DNA of 64,000 bases from the human T2T-CHM13v2.0 reference genome, Homo sapiens: NCBI RefSeq assembly GCF_009914755.1, contig NC_060936.1; one strand, 5' to 3'. This document shows positions 7,743 through 15,000 of this stretch, one piece after another; the first letter of the stretch is position 1; every line of letters starts with the position of its first letter. The notes below the pieces were generated by a model. It was not told where the DNA came from. It searched no databases and was given only the letters and a program-made list of their open reading frames with translations. The translations under genes and the position numbers were made by a program.

Positions 7743-8870
7743 CCATCCCCTAAAAAAAAAAAAAAAAAGTAGTAGGTAGACAGTTAATCACTTCTCACTT
7801 GTTCCTGACCTACAGACAAATGCAGAAACACAGTCACAGCAGCTCCCCGTAGGGGCTTGGCTTTGTTTTAACTCAGGATATTCATTTTGAAGGAATAGTC
7901 ATAAAATACATTACGCTGAACTATTTAAACTCAACGGGGCATCATTTAATGTTCGACCAAAGGATCCATCTGCTTTCCTTAGGTTAATATTCTGTTAAAG
8001 TATTTGTTCTGGAACTCTGGAAATTTGTGAAGAATTTGAAGTCTCCAGGGAAGCTAAGAGCATTTAGAATGGAACTAATGGTCTGTACATTTCATTGTAT
8101 TTTTACTGCTTCAGCAGCAATGTAGAGGTTAGGCATATTGAGTTGGGGTTAGAAACTAGGGTTAAACACTTAAAAGAATGTCAGGCATTCTGTGCCAAGG
8201 TCACCATTTAGCAATTTCACAAATAACTAAATGGAATGCCAAAAATAGGTTACAATAAAAATCAGGCCAATGAGAAGATAGAAGTGAAGAACTTAAATTA
8301 TTTATTTATTTTAATGATATATCAGACATCTTGTAAGATACCATCTCTCTTCTGGAGAATACTTTATTCTCTACTCCAATTGCAGTCTTCCAGCAATAGA
8401 TTAAATCATGCCATTTCCAGAATGTTTTTAGCCTGTTTTGTTTTCCTAAGATCACTCTCTACTGAATGTTTGCAATGAAGCAAAATAAACTACAAAACAC
8501 TGCAATTTCTATTACATCAATTTATTGACATTAATATTTAGTTTCACTTTGCAAATGCAACCACCTTTGAAGCATGCTTATTGTTCTTTGCTGCATCTTA
8601 TTTCAAGCTAATTTCTATCAATGTAGGTATCTGAGCTTTCGTGGCATATCTAGTTAGATGAAAGAAAAATCACTGAAGTGGCCTACTGCAACAATGAAAT
8701 ACATCCCGGCATTATCTGTGTTAACACTGCCATTTGTACCTCTAAGGGTCTAATTTACTTCAGCAATGTTCCATGAAGGGCATTGGCCAATGTAAAAAAT
8801 CTGTATTGAGGATTATAGTCAAATATATAATTTTAACATATCCAAATGGATGTATGTGTAATTACTGAAT

Positions 8871-10065
8871 CTATAATAACTAATACCATCATATCTTGAA
8901 AGATAGGATTTTCATGCTTATATCTCCAATAAATTGACATGGTTTTCCTTAAGAGTGAATTGATTTTATATTACCGTAACTGGACTAAAATAGACTGAAA
9001 TGTTCTTTGCGATGATTGCCATTAAGTGAAACAAGAATATTAAAATGAGTAGCTAGGCAAGAAAACAGACCTCTTATATCTCTGTAGAATATAGTACTTA
9101 TTTGTTTTGGAATGTAAAGACCAGAATCAGTATCAATTTTCTTGATATAATTCACATACCTAGGTGATTTATGTTTTTCCAATTTGCAGAGAATACAATT
9201 GTTCTTCCATTTCTTCCAGTCTTTCAAGTGCAGCCTGGGTATTTTTTCATCATTTAATAGAGTCTAATTGTTTTTAACCCGCATGTCAATACTGTCCAAA
9301 AGTTTGTTAAAAAACATTCCTTCAGAATTTGGATCTGCTGAATTGAAGAGACCTGATTTCAGCTCCACCAGATGCAGATATGTGTTTTGTTTTCTGGTTA
9401 TCACTGTCATACAGCTTAAAACATGTATGCTTTTCAGAATATAGTTGTCTAGGCAAACTGTCAGATGTATGAAATTCAATATTGGTATATGCAAACACCG
9501 CAAACTTTTCTTTAAGGAGTAGATGGGAGAATATGTTTATAATATTAGGAATCCTAGACTATATTTTCAAGTTATCTGAGCAGCTATGACCCTTAGGTGG
9601 AAGTGTTATATATAATACGTTAAAAACATTTTGCTTTCCTCGCTAATGATTTGTTCCTTTTCAATTCAAATTTGAATAATTTGTCATGTATTATTATTTC
9701 TGTTAAATGTATACTGTATTTAAGATGGATATATTTGGTGGCTGTATTTGTTCTGATATCTTATGATCTAAATTATGAGGTACCAAGATTGTTTCTCTGT
9801 TTATTTTTTCAAATTATGTTTAGAAATACTGTAATAAATATTCAGTAGTGATATAAAATTAAGAATTATATCAAATACAATATAAAAGCCATTACCTATG
9901 AACTGATCCATGCCTCATTTTGTATAAGTTTTATTCTGTGATCTCTTGTTCACTTAATATCTTGTTAAATGCTGATATCTCAGTCTTTCTGAAGCCCTGA
10001 AATGGTAATTTTAGCAGTTCAGAAAATGTCTTTCATTTCAATCAATAAAAAACTTCTGTAAAAAA
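8871..10065 (+). pseudogene. Processed pseudogene of an unidentified gene with 5' inversion (about 8871-9355 antisense, about 9355-10065 sense 3'UTR with poly(A))
   Basis: AATAAA at 10044-10049, A-run from 10060, TSD aattactgaat at 8860-8870 and 10066-10076. The minus strand of about 9169-9355 reads as a decayed C-terminus SGLFNSADPNSEGMFFNKLLDSIDMRVK[frameshift]QLDSIK**KNTQAALERLEEMEEQLYSLQIGKT* (stop 9169-9171; TGATGA consistent with CGA CpG decay). Confidence 0.75.
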
Positions 10066-10068
10066 AAT

Positions 10069-10455
10069 TACTGAATAGACAACTGTTCCACATTTACACT
10101 TATTAAAAACTGACATAAACAAACACAACCTGTACAAAAAATATCCCAAATCCCATGTCACTTTGGAACAGTAATATTGAAAGACATTGTCGCCTAAGAC
10201 CCCCTCTTCCTCTGCCACGGCCATGTCCTCTTCCTCTACTTCTGCCTCAGCTTCTTCCTGCAACAGCTTCCCTTTTCTTAGATTTCACCTTAAGTTCACC
10301 ATCCACAAGTAGTGTATCCAGAGATAAACTGTCTGGTAGAATAAAATATCAATGTTATTTCTTCGAATACTCAGTGTTTCCAGCTGTACAGTTTCTCTGT
10401 TCTTCAGGGTCATTTTCACAGCTTTAAGATGTGTATTCATGCTGACATCCACACC
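10069..10455 (-). pseudogene. SNRPD1: SNRPD1 (Sm D1) processed pseudogene fragment, 5'-truncated, no poly(A)
   Basis: Minus strand translates [35 protein letters not shown][fs ~10350][52 protein letters not shown], i.e. Sm D1 from G31 to the RG tail; internal stop 10247-10249; native stop changed to CAA at 10187-10189; followed by SNRPD1-like 3'UTR; no intron. Confidence 0.93.
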
Positions 10456-11006
10456 ACTGGATCAGTGGGTTCCAGTGGTTAATCTCCCTGAACGGTGATG
10501 GCATCTGAATGAAAATAACTGAACCAAATTGCACTGAAGTTTTTGAAATACCTTTGTAATTACTCAAGCCGTTACTCCCTACACTGACGCAAGGATTACA
10601 GAAACTGATGTCAAGGAGGTGAGTGAGTTCAACTACCTGTTCTGGGGGCCTGGACATAAAAGACTTTGCAAATAGAAAGAGGTGAAAATGAAGAAGAAAG
10701 CTGTATTGAAACAGAAATACAAGTCAAAAGGAACAATTACAAAGAATCATGCAGGAAGGAAAACTAGGTATTGATTTAGAATGGTTGAGTTACATTAAAA
10801 TAAACCAAATATGCTTTGTTAAAGTTTAAATGTGCAGCCACAATTTGAGTATTTTTGGTTTATATGCCCTCAAGTAAAGGAAAAGCTGAAAGAATTAATC
10901 ATATTTGAAAACCATATTTTATTGTATTTTGATTAGATATTAAATTTGCAGTTTTATTATAAATTGTACTGTTATTTTATGACATGAAAACTTATACTAT
11001 AAATTT
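10456..11006 (+). pseudogene. GADD45A: GADD45A processed pseudogene fragment (last 12 codons plus most of the 3'UTR, no poly(A))
   Basis: 10460-10498 encodes [12 protein letters not shown] (GADD45A ends MDQWVPVINLPER); followed by tggcatctgaatgaaaataactgaaccaaattgcactgaag, which I recognise as the GADD45A 3'UTR; similarity stops near 11006. May be the catalogued GADD45AP1 (not verified). Confidence 0.9.
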
Positions 11007-11050
11007 GGACTGCTATAGACTGCTTAGGTCCAACTTCAAGCGGATCTGCA

Positions 11051-11597
11051 TTTTTTTATGTCATATTAAATATTTATTTTCTGCAGACTGACTTCGGAGT
11101 AATTCTTGAGCCAGGAGGGGAGGAATTAGTGTTCAAATTGCTGAGATCTTAGGTCAAAACGCTACAGAAAATAATCACTATGTAAAAAACAGTGACTTAG
11201 AGGCAGTCACCCCTTGCCAGCAATTCCAAGAGTTGAGGCTTCATGCCTCAAGACATAGTGACAAGAGTTGAGTGAACCAGAAATTGAGGCAGTGAAGGTT
11301 TTTACAGGGAAAGAAACAAACTGTGGGTGTATGGGAGAAATGGAAGAGGGTGACAGACTGGGGAAATGATAAAGGCCATTTTGGAAGCCCACAGGGAAGT
11401 GGTCTTGGGAACCTGGAGACACTGGCAGATTCAGAAGGCCAAGGGGATCTAGCTTATACTTTGGAGGCAGGGTGCTGGAAGTGAAGGCAGGTAAGCCATG
11501 TCAAGAGCCTGGGAGGCAGGGGAAAACTGGAAGGGGACCCCAGGTGAAGAAGGGTTTGGGATGGGGTGCAGAAGTCCATGGAGACGACTGGCAGATC
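11051..11597 (-). pseudogene. VPS52: Retrocopied 3'UTR with poly(A), probably from VPS52
   Basis: Minus-strand AATAAA (11073-11078) followed by A7 (11051-11057); abrupt GC-richer, pyrimidine-rich UTR; gatctgcc...ctccatggacttctgcacccc...aagaattactccgaagtcagtctgcagaaaataaatattt matches my recollection of the VPS52 3'UTR. Confidence 0.65.
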
Positions 11598-11600
11598 GAC

Positions 11601-11690
11601 TTTTTGTTTTGTTTTGTTTTTAAATGCAAGTTGACATTTTATTAATATGTTATCATTTCAAACATGTATTAGCATAACTGTTGTGGTTGT
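11601..11690 (-). pseudogene. Candidate short mRNA 3'-end fragment, parent unknown
   Basis: Minus-strand AATAAA (11638-11643) lies 16 nt upstream of an A-rich tail aaaaacaaaacaaaacaaaaa (11601-11621) that abuts the 5' end of the VPS52-like piece. Confidence 0.4.
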
Positions 11691-12090
11691 AAATGGTGTA
11701 ACCATCACCTTAAAAATCAGAAGCAAGACAAAAACATATGACTACTATTAGTTAACATTGTTCTGAATTTTCTAAATGAACACATTCAGAAAAAGAGATC
11801 TGCAGTATAAAAATTGTAAATATTGCCATTATTTTCTGAAACTGTTTACCTGGAGGATCACTTATAAATAATTTACTAAGAAATCTAGGAACAAAACAAT
11901 CACTCAAATCAATGGATATAAAAAAGACACCACTACTTCTATGATGAAAATATTTATGAGGACAAAATATGAAAATAGAGGAAAGTATGAGATGGCAATA
12001 GCTTTCAACTAATTTTCAGAGATACTAGTAAATGAAAATAATTAAAGCAATGTAGTACTGATGAATTCACAGACAGATCAGGAGAACAGT
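11691..12090 (+). mobile_element. Ancient L1 (L1M) ORF2 fragment
   Basis: aaatcagaagcaagacaaa...actactattagttaacattgttctgaa resembles the L1 ORF2 SGTRQG...LLFNIVLE region, heavily decayed. Confidence 0.55.
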
Positions 12091-15000
12091 ATAGTGTGTG
12101 TATCTACTTCTGTATCCCTTCTAGGTATCTGTGTATCTTTCTATATGCAAGATATATATCCATGTATCTTGCACCTGATGGAGAAGGAAGGATCTGGAGC
12201 TTCTGCCCAGAATAAATACAGCAGACACCACTTAAAGAAGCCCAGAGTCAAAAAATATTAATTCTATGGAGAAGTTTATTCAAGTGAAATAGCTTAATTT
12301 CAATTTTTAACTTTCATGTTTTTGAAATCAGTAAGAAATTGCACTGGGAACTGAGAGTCAGATATACATGTAGAAATGTTGCCGCCTACATCACTCTGCC
12401 AACAATCAGGCATGGGAATGGCCAAGTCCTTACTTCAGGGAGTGGGGAGAGTGATAAAGTTAAAAAACATTAAACAGAAGTTTTTCTTAAATTTTTTCCT
12501 TAAAAATATTTTCTTTCCATGTTACAGAAAATGCTATATGCTAATATTTGGTTTATTCTGTGAGCTTTCAACTCTGACTTTTATGTAATGGGCTTGTATA
12601 TCATCTACTTGATCATATCTCTGTCTCATGTCCCCACTAAACAGAAGAATTCTTAAAGTCAAGAATGATTAACAAGATTGATTCTTTGCCTCAAGCATTG
12701 TAGGACTATTTTTTTAAATCTCATGATATTAACAATAGTGCTCGAACTAATAGGAGTAAAAAAAATGGACTTATCTGGCTCTTAGAACATTTTATAGAAT
12801 TATGCAACAAGAGTAAATTAAAATATTTTTGAATGACTTCTGCACAACAGTTACTGAGGATGCAATTATGAAGGCAAACATAGTACCTGCCTTCCTTGAT
12901 TTTAGAGTCTAGGGAAGATTTTAAAACCCAAAATAAACCAAAAATACTTATCTTCTATTCTTTGGAGATGGCTCTCTAAACTGCTCAATTTGTGCTTCTT
13001 GTAGGTTAACTGAAGATAATACTAAATACGATATTTATGTCTTTCCATTCCTTATCAGATTATCTCTTCTAGAATTTATGTCCACACTGTTTTATCATAT
13101 CAGCTAAGTGCTTTTTGAGATTCAGTAACTAATACCTGACAGAGAAAATTAATATATACTACACCATTTAATTTCTAACCTATCGATACTATTTAATTTG
13201 AATGGCCTTTAAGGCACTCACAAATAATAGACCACCTACCATTTAAATTCCATCTCAGCCTCCAAATATAATTAAGAGAAAAGTAAGAACAAAAGTTGAT
13301 TTTCCCAGAATCTGGGAACAATTTACAATGTTAGCATTAATCAATGTTAAATATGATACTATATCAACATTTACTTCTTTACACTATGTGACTATGCTAT
13401 GTACTCAACCTCTTATGCTGCTATAATCAATGCAGAAGCTCTTTATACCGCCTTTTCAAAGCATTAAAATTCAAATCCAAACCATTAAACATTATATTTC
13501 ATGTTTGCCTACTCTTAATCTGCAATACAACAATTAAAAACCATAAAATAGTGATGTAAAATCTATAATGAAAAGAGTTACTTCCCTCTGAGATTTGACT
13601 AATATTATGACAATCTGCTTTCTTGTTACTATACATTTTAAATGAAGTGATGTGTCTTGTGCCAGTATTTAAAAACTCTCTTTTGGATTCCTACCAAAAA
13701 TAGTACTTCAGGCTAAACCTCAAAGACAAAAAACATTTAGTAGATTTGTTGAAATGGAGTTTAATATTCACATTAGTTGAGGCTCCTTTTTTGATAGGTG
13801 ATATAATTCTAATATAGTCTCATTTAGAAATTTACAGTAAAAGAGCACACCACAACTTCTTGAGAACAACTTGGGAGATATCATAGAATATTATACTTTT
13901 TAAAAATATTCTTGAAAAAAGTAAAGAGTCTAATTTTAACGTGGGGTGAGGAGTGAGAAAAGAACAAGTAATATCTTACCACTGAAATTCAGAAACATAT
14001 TAATTTTTTTATTCCTGTAGTAGTAAACTAAAAAGTAGAAAAGCAAATATTGTTACACATATTCTAAAAGTTTTAAAAATCAATTTTATTATGCAATCAT
14101 TAAATTACATCCTTATTTTTCTATAAAATTAGGCATCTATTTTGCTTTAAAATTTTTAAGTACATATAAGTTCTAATTACTAAAGATATTGTCCTAAATA
14201 TTCTATTGTTAAGAGAATCAATATCTTTCCATTTCTGTGGATAAAAAGCACGGACAGAAACACTGCACCAATAAGAAATCACAGAGGAATATAAGCTTTC
14301 AGGATGCTAGGACTGTTGCAGACACCTGGGACAAATCCTATCTCTTCCTGTGAGGATACAGAAAATGAGAAATTGATGTAGTTTCTTCCACTATCAGCCA
14401 GATTATTGAAACTAGAGCCCAGGAACAGGAACCAAGAAATCATAAGCAAACAGCAAGCGACAGCCTGCTCCTAAAATATCAGCAACTAAAAATCTTAGAA
14501 GTTCGAACTTGTCATCTTTCTGTTAGGGAGTAATCTCTTTGCCTGCTAGGTAATGGAAATTTTTGGAGAAAATTTGCACATATGCCAAGTGCCACCTTCA
14601 TCTGGCATATGTATAAATCTCAACTACAGCACAGACGTCAAAAGTCAAAAGTCTGCTATAAAATGGGTGTCCATAACAAGTCTCATCTTATAAATACAAT
14701 AGAAGCATTTTTGGTTGAAGTTAGAGCATGTCTCCCAAGGTAGCTTACGATACTGATAATGCAAACTTAAATGTGTCTGTCCTTACTAAATCTTACTGTC
14801 TTGGTTATAAAGATACTACAAATTCAATCCACAGTGAGTAAATGAAATTTATGAAATAAATGTAGGTATGGATGCCCTGAAATATTTAATAAAGATCATT
14901 AATCTCCTCTCCAAAAAGGCAAGGGCACATGATACTTCTGAAACATATTCTAATCTTATCCACGTGTAACATTCAACTGAATTAAAACAAAGAAATAAAT

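What the first reader, a model, noticed from the sequence alone, without database searches (positions are those of the whole stretch)
8860..11700. Multi-gene cDNA concatemer: 4-6 unrelated mRNA 3' ends stitched together in 2.8 kb
Seen: back-to-back segments with essentially no genomic spacer: unknown gene X (8871-10065), SNRPD1 (-, 10069-10455), GADD45A (+, 10456-11006), a 44-bp linker, a VPS52-like 3'UTR (-, 11051-11597), and a further AATAAA-plus-tail piece (-, 11601-~11690). Orientations alternate. The SNRPD1 and GADD45A pieces lack poly(A). I find no TSDs around the individual internal pieces. Established: ordinary L1 target-primed reverse transcription gives one mRNA, a poly(A) tail and a TSD; the classic chimeric retrocopies (U6/L1, U6/mRNA template switches) are usually two parts in the same orientation. 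Inference: independent insertions landing flush against each other this often is unlikely in a window with no other recognisable retrocopies. One germline event that joined several cDNAs (end-joining at a double-strand break, or serial template switching) fits better, and would be a fossil snapshot of the mRNAs present in one germline cell.
Basis: partly seen in the sequence, partly recalled or inferred. Interest (0 to 1): 0.9.

Follow-up and report, generated by a model that had tools for sequence, protein, structure and literature searches.

The report
Five-mRNA retrocopy mosaic, one insertion
A 3.1-kb stretch of human chromosome 12 is a patchwork of the tail ends of five different messenger RNAs that were copied back into DNA and apparently pasted in together at one chromosome break tens of millions of years ago, an unusually rich natural example of many cDNAs being stitched into a single insertion.

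Summary
The inserted block is window 9319-12455, not 8860-11700. It holds five 5'-truncated mRNA 3' fragments and one filler:
- GBE1 3'UTR (+)
- spliced SNRPD1 (-)
- GADD45A (+)
- a 44-nt filler of unknown origin
- VPS52 3'UTR (-)
- an 834-nt UBTF-like (UBTFL-family) 3'UTR (-)

Window 8871-9317 is ordinary flank.

The whole block is bracketed by one direct repeat: AAAAGTTTGTTAAAAAACATT on the left and AAAGTTAAAAAACATT on the right, sharing an exact 13-mer. Of the 21 possible contiguous sub-blocks, only the complete block has such a repeat.

Four pieces differ from their parent genes by a uniform 6.6-8.7%. The fifth looks older against its nearest relative, but not once changes are assigned to lineages.

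No second copy of the mosaic exists in this genome.

Best reading (0.6): one germline event in which several L1-type cDNAs were joined, by end joining and/or template jumping, into one staggered break. Main rival (0.2): the UBTFL copy inserted first, and a four-cDNA concatemer landed later at its tail.

This is a new variant of a known kind. Cell-culture work has shown two-RNA insertions, and one with extra cDNAs. My searches found no fixed five-mRNA case.

The parts
9298..9318 (.). Left copy of the flanking direct repeat (TSD), AAAAGTTTGTTAAAAAACATT. Base 9318 (T) is shared with the first GBE1 base.
   Evidence: (family D12: exact 13-mer at 9306-9318 and 12459-12471).
9318..10067 (+). GBE1 mRNA 3' end. 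It starts 27 nt into the last exon and runs through the AATAAA signal to the cleavage region, then an A8 run (10060-10067) of which at least 4 A are absent from the parent gene.
   Evidence: C3:81543135-81543867 (-), 89.4% identity over 747 columns; borders; 64 of 732 substitutions; the only Alpha-amylase_C hit outside the chr1 amylase cluster lies 45 kb upstream on the same strand. The gene name is recalled from the chromosomal position.
10068..10455 (-). SNRPD1 spliced mRNA fragment. Its 3' end is in the natural cleavage region with at most 1 nt of tail (10068). The exon-exon junction is at 10264/10265. Its 5' end falls exactly at an internal exon boundary (+1 nt).
   Evidence: C18:21814156-21814347 and C18:21808842-21809034... 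Sm D1, E 4e-16; comparison with two full-length processed pseudogenes and the gene.
10456..11006 (+). GADD45A last-exon fragment (end of the coding sequence plus 3'UTR). It is truncated at the 3' end about 30-45 nt before the parent's AATAAA and cleavage site and has no tail. Bases 10456-10457 (AC) are either filler or GADD45A with a 1-nt deletion.
   Evidence: C1:67565253-67565807 (+), 90.7% identity.. RefSeq GADD45AP1 spans 10458-11006 (hub annotation).
11007..11050 (.). 44-nt filler of unknown origin.
   Evidence: with up to 3 mismatches the only genome match is itself (1 forward, 0 reverse); the best local alignment to any parent locus scores 21, below the median of 22 for 200 shuffles; no Rfam match here.
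11051..11600 (-). VPS52 3'UTR fragment (11058-11597). It begins 21 nt after the stop codon and ends at the natural poly(A) site with a 7-nt tail (T7, 11051-11057) that the parent does not template. Three extra bases (GAC, 11598-11600) sit at its 5' end.
   Evidence: C6:33071642-33072182 (+), 90.2% identity.. Vps52_CC exons at C6:33089469-33090557 (-).
11601..12455 (-). UBTF-like (UBTFL-family) 3'UTR fragment (11622-12455) with AATAAA and a 21-nt degenerate tail (T5GT4GT4GT5 on the + strand, 11601-11621).
   Evidence: C11:89621629-89622457 at 82%, C11:49309337-49310161 at 81%, a second retrocopy on C16 at 86-88%, and six paralogs at 68-70%; the relatives lie 0.6-0.7 kb downstream of UBF-like HMG-box reading frames..
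12456..12471 (.). Right copy of the flanking direct repeat (TSD), AAAGTTAAAAAACATT.

Best explanation
Window 9319-12455 is one composite retro-insertion. It holds five polyadenylated mRNAs (GBE1, SNRPD1, GADD45A, VPS52 and a UBTF-like gene), each represented only by a 5'-truncated 3' end, plus a 44-nt filler. All sit inside a single staggered chromosomal break of the LINE-1 type.

Shown:
- RNA origin. SNRPD1 carries a splice junction. The VPS52 and UBTFL pieces, and probably the GBE1 piece, carry untemplated A tails at natural poly(A) sites.
- One 16-21 bp target-site duplication surrounds the whole block and no sub-block.
- The pieces are of similar age.
- The mosaic is unique in the genome.

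Inferred:
- An L1-type reverse transcriptase (ORF2p acting in trans) made the cDNAs.
- The VPS52 and UBTFL pieces lie head-to-tail, with a tail and 3 extra bases between them. This is the signature of a template jump from the end of one mRNA to the poly(A) of the next.
- The other joints are tail-to-tail (GBE1|SNRPD1), head-to-head (SNRPD1|GADD45A) and filler-bridged (GADD45A|VPS52). They were made either by non-homologous end joining of separate cDNAs or by further jumps between RNA and cDNA templates. I put this at about 60:40 in favour of end joining.
- Both chromosomal flanks touch the mRNA 5'-truncation ends, and every poly(A) end is internal. The cDNAs were therefore not primed from the target nicks. 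Both borders look like ordinary L1 '5' junctions', where a cDNA 3' end is attached to a chromosomal 3' overhang.
- Window-lineage divergence of about 4-6% puts the event in an anthropoid-primate ancestor. This calibration is recalled, not computed here.
- The cell of origin was germline or early embryo. Mouse Ubtfl1 is a 2-cell-stage gene.
For: - Parents: one search scored 13 of 13 candidates. Each piece maps to a different chromosome, and no other locus carries two pieces.
- Borders at single-base resolution.
- Spliced SNRPD1.
- Flanking repeat: (D12, exact 13-mer at 9306-9318 and 12459-12471). In one search, of 21 contiguous sub-blocks only the complete block has a long flanking repeat (13 nt); the next best is 8 nt and not adjacent. 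In one search, a run of 13 nt or more occurred in 1 of 8686 control placements.
- The repeat is not derived from a parent. The GBE1 parent and the UBTFL relatives continue with different sequence at both borders.
- The left border reads CC|AAAAG, so the bottom strand reads CTTTT/GG. This is close to the L1 endonuclease preference, which I recall rather than tested.
- Divergence: GBE1 64/732, SNRPD1 27/381, GADD45A 36/544, VPS52 42/534; chi-square p = 0.52.
- Polarised window-lineage changes: UBTFL 37/645 against SNRPD1+GBE1 26/624, Fisher p = 0.24.
- Literature. Purified ORF2p shows DNA-templated synthesis, untemplated base addition, template jumping that makes concatemers, and cytosolic cDNA synthesis (PMC10830420, passages). 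L1-overexpressing cells yielded nine insertions with two RNAs and one with extra RT sequences at the internal junction (PMC11702581, section 7 read in full).
Against: - The UBTFL piece differs from its nearest relatives by 15-16% (123/813), about twice the other four (chi-square p = 7e-8 when it is included). Maximum-likelihood trees give it a terminal branch of 0.08-0.10. The polarised count removes the significance, but it rests on outgroups 26% diverged and on sites where those outgroups agree.
- The UBTFL tail is long and degenerate (21 nt), while the others are 7-8 nt and pure. That fits an older, canonical insertion that owned the TSD.
- No known one-step L1 pathway predicts poly(A) ends all internal and 5' ends at both flanks.
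- The two TSD copies differ by a 4-nt indel.
- GADD45A has neither a splice junction nor a tail, so its RNA origin is assumed from context.
- No orthologous primate loci could be examined.
Confidence: 0.6

Rival explanations
1. Two steps, UBTFL first. A UBTF-like mRNA inserted alone by canonical target-primed reverse transcription on the minus strand, giving TSD, long tail, 5'-truncated body, TSD. Later a four-cDNA concatemer (GBE1, SNRPD1, GADD45A, filler, VPS52) was captured, without a TSD of its own, at a break exactly between the left TSD copy and the tail.
For: - UBTFL total divergence is 15-16% against 6.6-8.7% for the others, and its maximum-likelihood terminal branch is 0.08-0.10.
- Its tail is 21 nt and degenerate while the others are short. 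In this order the tail would originally have abutted the left TSD copy, as in a canonical insertion.
- The minus-strand border reads TT|AATG, an acceptable L1-type site (the motif is recalled).
Against: - The later break must fall within about 1 nt of the TSD/tail border, with no loss of the TSD and no TSD of its own. That position is not an L1 endonuclease site on either strand (read).
- Window-lineage changes are not significantly more numerous than for SNRPD1+GBE1 (37/645 against 26/624, p = 0.24).
- The nearest relative is itself a frameshifted pseudogene. It changed 5.7% (37 of 645), against 1.6% for the functional parents, and this explains the larger total.
- A four-cDNA single capture is still needed, so this rival changes the count, not the kind.
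Confidence: 0.2
2. Two steps in another order. Either GBE1 inserted first as a canonical plus-strand processed pseudogene owning the TSD, and the rest landed between its tail and the right TSD copy. Or a VPS52-UBTFL template-switch chimera inserted first, and GBE1, SNRPD1, GADD45A and the filler landed between the left TSD copy and the VPS52 tail.
For: - The left border CC|AAAAG fits a plus-strand L1 event, with the GBE1 5' end joined through a 1-nt overlap.
- VPS52 and UBTFL, head-to-tail with tails, form a textbook template-switch pair.
Against: - It needs the same coincidence of a TSD-less second hit exactly at a tail/TSD border.
- It does not explain the extra UBTFL divergence any better than the single-event reading.
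- The four dated pieces have indistinguishable divergence.
Confidence: 0.1
3. Five independent, ordinary retrocopy insertions that happened to land flush against each other, for instance because A-rich tails attract L1 endonuclease.
For: A-rich tails are known L1 targets (recalled). Three joints involve tails.
Against: - No internal piece or sub-block has its own flanking repeat (20 of 21 sub-blocks show a longest shared run of 8 nt or less).
- SNRPD1 and GADD45A lack tails, and GADD45A is truncated at the 3' end.
- The orientations are wrong for tail-primed nesting.
- There is no native spacer DNA between the pieces.
- Divergences are equal.
Confidence: 0.03
4. Not a biological insertion at this site: an assembly chimera, or a copy of a mosaic made elsewhere and moved here by segmental duplication.
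For: None found.
Against: - The whole-genome search found no other locus carrying more than one piece.
- RefSeq curates GADD45AP1 at exactly 10458-11006 (hub annotation).
- The block has clean borders and a TSD.
Confidence: 0.01

Closest known systems
Non-canonical L1-mediated insertions with two RNA templates, or with extra RT sequences at the internal junction, in L1-overexpressing human cells (Mendez-Dorantes et al. 2024 preprint, PMC11702581; section 7 read in full)
   Same: Several cellular mRNA-derived cDNAs lie in one L1-type insertion, in the same or opposite orientation, with microhomology or untemplated bases at the joints and an L1-length TSD. That paper's authors conclude that RT-extended ends can take in further cDNA products before ligation.
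   Different: Those are somatic, experimental and almost all two-part, and the opposite-orientation class is explained by RT from both target ends, which puts the RNA 3' ends at the flanks. Here there are five parents plus a filler, the event is fixed in the germline and old, and both flanks touch the mRNA 5'-truncation ends with all tails internal.
Template-switch chimeric retrogenes, bipartite or tripartite (for example U6/L1; tripartite case in Magnaporthe, PMC2104539, abstract only seen; the human catalogues are recalled, not read)
   Same: Copies of different transcripts are fused directly, with one TSD and an L1/LINE reverse transcriptase. The VPS52-UBTFL pair here has exactly this head-to-tail form.
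   Different: The classic chimeras have all parts in one orientation, the poly(A) of the 3' part lies next to the TSD, and they have two or three parts. Here the orientations are + - + - -, and no tail lies next to a TSD.
RT-product-mediated double-strand-break repair (RMDR, sequential RMDR) at CRISPR cuts in mouse zygotes (Ono et al. 2015, PMC4516963; passages read)
   Same: Reverse-transcribed spliced mRNA fragments, sometimes several, are captured at one break in an early embryo, in either orientation, with short microhomologies and short fillers.
   Different: Captured mRNA pieces there have no poly(A) tails, are truncated at both ends, usually lack TSDs, and were attributed to LTR-element RT. 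Here three or four of the five pieces end at natural poly(A) sites, two or three of them with tails, and the block has a 16-21 bp TSD.
Twin priming (5'-inverted L1 and processed-pseudogene insertions)
   Same: Segments lie in opposite orientation within one TSD. The SNRPD1|GADD45A joint is head-to-head, like a twin-priming centre.
   Different: Twin priming places the RNA 3' sides at both flanks and normally uses one RNA. That geometry was tested here and is not met.

Membership tests
Canonical L1-mediated processed pseudogene (single TPRT event) | Intronless copy of one parent mRNA | tested here: not met
   Five parents on C3, C18, C1, C6 and C11-like loci. The SNRPD1 piece is intronless across one junction.
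Canonical L1-mediated processed pseudogene (single TPRT event) | Target-site duplication of about 7-20 bp flanking the insertion | tested here: met
   16-21 bp repeat with an exact 13-mer core at 9306-9318 and 12459-12471, with a 4-nt indel between the copies.
Canonical L1-mediated processed pseudogene (single TPRT event) | Poly(A) tail directly abutting the downstream TSD copy | tested here: not met
   Both TSD copies abut mRNA 5'-truncation ends (GBE1 at 9318/9319, UBTFL at 12455). All A/T runs are internal.
Canonical L1-mediated processed pseudogene (single TPRT event) | T-rich/A-rich endonuclease nick site at the TSD border | tested here: inconclusive
   The left border reads CC|AAAAG and the right border on the minus strand reads TT|AATG. 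Both are loosely L1-like in an AT-rich target. No statistical test was run.
Template-switch chimeric retrogene (Buzdin type) | All parts in the same orientation, fused head-to-tail | tested here: not met
   The orientations are + - + - -. Only the VPS52-UBTFL pair is head-to-tail.
Template-switch chimeric retrogene (Buzdin type) | One TSD around the whole chimera | tested here: met
Twin-primed two-template insertion | RNA 3' sides face both flanks and 5' ends meet in the middle | tested here: not met
   The reverse holds for the outer pieces.
Endonuclease-independent / RMDR cDNA capture at a double-strand break | No TSD, often a small target deletion | tested here: not met
   A TSD is present around the whole block. 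The feature would be met only for the inner four-piece block under the two-step rival.
Endonuclease-independent / RMDR cDNA capture at a double-strand break | Captured cDNAs truncated at the 3' end and lacking poly(A) | tested here: inconclusive
   True for GADD45A (truncated) and SNRPD1 (no tail). False for VPS52 (A7) and UBTFL (21 nt). GBE1 has an A8 run with at least 4 untemplated A.
LTR-retroelement-mediated retroposition (Tan et al. 2016, PMC5131818, abstract only seen) | Retrocopy flanked by or fused to LTR-element sequence, with a short (4-6 bp) TSD | tested here: not met
   Apart from the 44-nt filler and a few junction bases, every base of the block is assigned to one of the five mRNAs or their tails. 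The TSD is 16-21 bp.

The most novel reading that the evidence does not exclude
This is a fixed germline example of a 'retro-concatemer'. A pool of free L1-made cDNAs in one totipotent or germline cell was ligated or template-jumped into a five-gene chain and used to seal a single L1-made break. The mRNA 5'-truncation ends face both flanks, a geometry that no current TPRT or twin-priming scheme predicts. If so, such blocks form a class that records which mRNAs co-existed with active L1 in ancestral germline or cleavage-stage cells. The UBTF-like piece hints at a 2-cell/8-cell-like state. They would also show that pre-formed cDNA, not only target-primed cDNA, enters the primate germline.
Probability: 0.4. 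Interest if true: 0.75.

Novelty: new variant of a known kind. Interest (0 to 1): 0.6.

Why it matters
Processed pseudogenes are normally read as one mRNA, one event.

This locus shows that one event can carry at least four, and probably five, unrelated mRNAs in mixed orientation. So L1-type reverse transcription in the germline can supply a pool of cDNAs that repair enzymes or template jumping string together.

It is a natural, fixed counterpart of the rare multi-template insertions recently seen in L1-overexpressing cells and in CRISPR-cut zygotes.

It also gives concrete joint sequences against which models can be tested: 1-3 nt fillers, a 44-nt filler, and short tails.

Practically, pseudogene annotation here names only GADD45AP1, so four neighbouring retro-fragments are unannotated in the supplied RefSeq table. 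Dating or counting retrocopies one at a time would count this single event five times.

If more such blocks exist, their gene content could report the transcriptome of the cells in which heritable retrotransposition happened.

Tried and rejected
- Gene X reaching back to 8871. The own-genome search of 8500-9330 found only the window itself, and the left TSD copy sits at 9298-9318. Rejected.
- My first guess that the piece after 11600 was an old L1 3' end. One search showed a low-copy family next to UBF-like HMG-box frames instead. Rejected.
- Source of the 44-nt filler. A genome pattern search with up to 3 mismatches found only itself. The k-mer search of the window and parent loci gave one 10-mer and thirteen 9-mers, all scattered. 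The best local alignment scored 21, against a shuffle median of 22. Rfam gave no hit in it. It remains unexplained.
- Rfam over 9200-12600 gave 1 match, SNORD18 at 22.5 bits against a gathering score of 41, E 0.58. I take this as chance.
- Twin priming at both TSD borders. This predicts TSD, T7-VPS52-UBTFL, then GBE1-A8, TSD, which is the opposite order to the one seen. Rejected on geometry.
- A single ligated or trans-spliced RNA template. This cannot give alternating orientations. Rejected.
- LTR-element-mediated retroposition. There is no LTR sequence, and the TSD is too long. Rejected.
- DNA-level templated insertion. The splice junction and the untemplated tails exclude it for four pieces. 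It is not excluded for GADD45A alone.
- Internal TSDs: none found in 20 of 21 sub-blocks.
- The Pfam check for GBE1 failed twice because the tool was busy and succeeded on the same request.
- Literature. No paper in the held library describes this locus or a four-or-more-mRNA insertion in one TSD. GADD45AP1 occurs in 1 paper, an unrelated abstract book.
- bioRxiv supplements are closed. The chimera tables of 10.1101/2025.02.02.635956 and Fig. S7 of PMC11702581 could not be seen and may bear on the 'not in print' statement.

Full report
WHAT IS THERE

I read 8400-12300 and searched 8860-11700 against the window's own genome, a complete human assembly. All 13 candidates were scored. Besides the window itself, each part of the region matched a different chromosome, and no other locus carried two parts. 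Fine mapping followed with blastn against the fetched loci and base-by-base border displays.

The pieces, from left to right:
- 9318-10063 matches C3:81543135-81543867 on the minus strand at 89.4%.
- 10069-10264 and 10264-10455 match two blocks 5 kb apart on C18, at 85.9% and 95.9%.
- 10458-11006 matches C1:67565253-67565807 at 90.7%.
- 11058-11597 matches C6:33071642-33072182 at 90.2%.
- A second search of 11590-12600 showed that the last piece runs to 12455. It matches two C11 loci at 81-82%, a C16 locus at 86-88% in three blocks, and six more distant paralogs on C11 and C2 at 68-70%.

IDENTITIES
- SNRPD1. The minus-strand translation of 10348-10455 hits Sm D1 chains in the PDB (best E 3.7e-16, 9 sequences). 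The piece crosses an exon-exon junction at 10264/10265, so it comes from spliced RNA.
- GADD45A. The C1 parent and the RefSeq curation GADD45AP1 (10458-11006, hub annotation) agree.
- VPS52. The three Pfam Vps52_CC exon hits in the genome lie at C6:33089469-33090557 on the minus strand, 18 kb upstream of the matched 3' end on the same strand. The fragment starts 21 nt after a stop codon.
- GBE1. The matched C3 segment is the end of a last exon plus the 3'UTR. The only Alpha-amylase_C hit outside the chr1 amylase cluster lies 45 kb upstream on the same strand (13 matches, 1 on C3 and 12 on C1). The name GBE1 for that gene is recalled from its position.
- The fifth piece. Its relatives lie 0.6-0.7 kb downstream of reading frames with HMG boxes (Pfam HMG_box E 5e-16) that are closest to UBF / nucleolar transcription factor 1 in the PDB (E 3.9e-33). 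In the nearest C11 relative these frames are broken by frameshifts. I call it UBTF-like (UBTFL family); the family name is recalled.
- Both this copy and the C16 copy end at the same AATAAA-plus-cleavage position with A-rich tails. That marks both as retrocopies of a polyadenylated transcript.

BORDERS AND JOINTS
- GBE1 (+) starts 27 nt into its last exon. It ends in an A8 run (10060-10067), of which at least 4 A are not in the parent.
- SNRPD1 (-) ends in its natural cleavage region, about 16 nt beyond the site used by two other SNRPD1 pseudogenes, with at most one tail base. GBE1 and SNRPD1 are therefore joined tail-to-tail.
- The SNRPD1 5' end and the GADD45A 5' end meet head-to-head at 10455/10456, with 0-2 extra bases.
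- GADD45A stops about 30-45 nt short of its parent's AATAAA and cleavage site, with no tail.
- The 44-nt filler follows, then T7 and VPS52 (-). The parent has no T run there, so this tail is untemplated.
- Three extra bases (GAC) follow, then a 21-nt degenerate tail and the UBTF-like body (-).
- VPS52 and UBTFL are thus head-to-tail with a tail between them, the form expected from an RT template jump.

THE NEW OBSERVATION: ONE TSD

Immediately left of the GBE1 start lies AAAAGTTTGTTAAAAAACATT (9298-9318). Immediately right of the UBTF-like 5' end lies AAAGTTAAAAAACATT (12456-12471). The two share an exact 13-mer (family D12) and differ by a 4-nt indel.

Neither copy comes from a parent: the GBE1 gene and the UBTF-like relatives continue with unrelated sequence at these points.

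As a control I slid the same geometry across the window. Of 8686 placements, 11 had a shared run of 10 nt or more and 1 had 13 nt or more, and that one probably overlaps the real site.

I then tested all 21 contiguous sub-blocks of the six segments. Only the complete block has a long flanking repeat (13 nt). The next best is an 8-nt A-rich match that is not adjacent to the joint, and the other 19 have 6 nt or less.

So the insertion is 9319-12455. It also matched nothing else in the genome.

AGE
- Substitution differences from the parents: GBE1 64/732 (8.7%), SNRPD1 27/381 (7.1%; 3.7% in the coding exon, 10.5% in the last exon), GADD45A 36/544 (6.6%), VPS52 42/534 (7.9%). These are homogeneous (chi-square p = 0.52).
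- The UBTF-like piece differs from its nearest relatives by 123/813 and 128/809 (15-16%), which is significantly more (p = 7e-8 when included).
- Trees place the window copy, the C16 copy and the C11 pair in an unresolved three-way split (support 41%), with a window branch of 0.08-0.10.
- I then assigned changes to lineages with outgroups. For SNRPD1 (older pseudogene on C12) and GBE1 (older C16 fragment), the window lineage has 26 of 624 sites, the parents 10, and 10 are ambiguous. For the UBTF-like piece (six distant paralogs, unanimous sites), the window lineage has 37 of 645, the C11 lineage 37, and 18 are ambiguous.
- The window-lineage rates, 5.7% and 4.2%, do not differ significantly (Fisher p = 0.24; with ambiguous sites shared out, 7.1% against 5.3%, p = 0.20).
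- The excess total divergence is on the relative's side (5.7% against 1.6% for the functional parents). That fits the C11 loci being decaying pseudogenes.
- One age for all five pieces is therefore allowed, but an older UBTF-like piece (up to about 1.4-2 fold) is not excluded.
- A window-lineage divergence of about 4-6% suggests an anthropoid ancestor. This calibration is recalled.

MECHANISM

All five pieces are 3'-terminal mRNA fragments. Four of them end at or in natural poly(A) sites, and the TSD has L1 length. An L1-type reverse transcriptase acting in trans is therefore the likely maker.

The geometry is unusual: both flanks touch mRNA 5'-truncation ends, and every tail is internal.
- Canonical TPRT puts a tail next to one TSD copy.
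- Twin priming puts RNA 3' sides next to both.
- Priming from both TSD borders predicts the two outer units in the opposite order to the one observed.

Both borders instead look like ordinary L1 '5' junctions', with a cDNA 3' end attached to a chromosomal 3' overhang (1-nt overlap on the left).

Two joining routes fit:
- (a) Separate cDNAs ligated in random orientation by end joining and captured in the staggered break. The chance that both outer pieces point outward with their 5' ends is then simply 1 in 4.
- (b) One polymerase run from a target nick that jumps between RNA templates (giving antisense pieces) and pre-existing first-strand cDNAs (giving sense pieces), adding 1-3 untemplated bases at each jump.

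Purified ORF2p has the needed activities: DNA-templated synthesis, untemplated addition, template jumping into concatemers, and cytosolic cDNA synthesis (PMC10830420, passages).

RIVALS

The main rival is a two-step history. The UBTF-like copy inserted first, canonically, owning the TSD and the long tail. Later a four-cDNA chain was captured exactly at the TSD/tail border.

Its strengths are the larger divergence and the long degenerate tail. Its weakness is a TSD-less second hit within about 1 nt of that border, at a position that is not an L1 endonuclease site. It also still needs a four-cDNA single capture.

Other orders (GBE1 first; VPS52-UBTFL first) share that weakness. Five independent insertions are all but excluded. 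An assembly artefact or a donor copy elsewhere found no support.

COMPARISON WITH WHAT IS KNOWN
- In L1-overexpressing cells, long reads resolved nine insertions with two RNA templates, and one in which two further RT sequences sat at the internal junction (PMC11702581, section 7 read in full).
- Template-switch chimeras are bi- or tripartite and co-oriented (PMC2104539, abstract only; human catalogues recalled).
- CRISPR-cut mouse zygotes capture spliced mRNA fragments, sometimes several, but without tails and mostly without TSDs (PMC4516963, passages).
- A 2025 catalogue of L1 chimeras does not mention any of these four genes in its main text (10.1101/2025.02.02.635956, passages).
- Eight literature searches found no description of this locus or of four or more mRNAs inside one TSD.

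I therefore file this as a new variant of a known kind, not as a member of any of the named classes. Each class fails at least one defining feature that I tested.

CELL OF ORIGIN (INFERENCE)

Mouse Ubtfl1 is listed among genes driven by LTRs in 2-cell embryos and ES cells (one passage each in PMC6387303 and PMC12211846). If the primate UBTF-like parent was similarly restricted, the event happened in a cleavage-stage or germline cell.

Noticed in passing
window 10453-10457: The 5' end of the SNRPD1 fragment falls exactly at an internal exon boundary (+1 nt). Two full-length SNRPD1 pseudogenes continue into the upstream exon and the gene continues into the intron, but the window switches to GADD45A. 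The chance is roughly 1% for a random truncation point. No explanation found.
   Followed up: partly
window 11043-11049 and 11591-11597: A 7-nt inverted repeat (GATCTGC / GCAGATC) brackets the VPS52 piece and its tail. The right end of the filler repeats, in sense polarity, the first bases of the VPS52 fragment. It could be chance or a trace of strand switching. Its significance was not tested.
   Followed up: no
window 10134-11333: RefSeq annotates a functional 'enhancer' element that spans parts of the SNRPD1, GADD45A and VPS52 retro-fragments and the filler (hub annotation). So the fossil block may have regulatory activity.
   Followed up: no
L011 (G000:C16:77779616-77782698), about 828-1583: An independent retrocopy of the same UBTF-like 3'UTR, ending at the same poly(A) site, with a 55-nt deletion and an Alu-like insertion of about 280 bp. 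It is about as old as the window copy (terminal branches 0.089 and 0.081).
   Followed up: partly
L016 and L017 (C11:89.62 Mb and C11:49.31 Mb): The two nearest UBTF-like relatives differ from each other by only 2.9%, so they are a recent segmental duplication. At least the 89.62 Mb copy carries frameshifted HMG-box frames.
   Followed up: partly
window 9296-9302 and 12468-12476: Both ends of the TSD resemble L1 endonuclease sites, one on each strand (CC|AAAAG on the plus strand, TT|AATG read on the minus strand). This may only reflect the AT-rich target.
   Followed up: no
window 11936-11994: A weak Rfam SNORD18 match inside the UBTF-like piece (22.5 bits against a gathering score of 41, E 0.58). 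Probably chance.
   Followed up: no
L010 (G000:C16:19278298-19278550): An older fragment related to the middle of the GBE1 3'UTR (77.5% to the window copy). It served here as the outgroup to polarise changes. Its own nature (old retro-fragment or repeat) was not examined.
   Followed up: no
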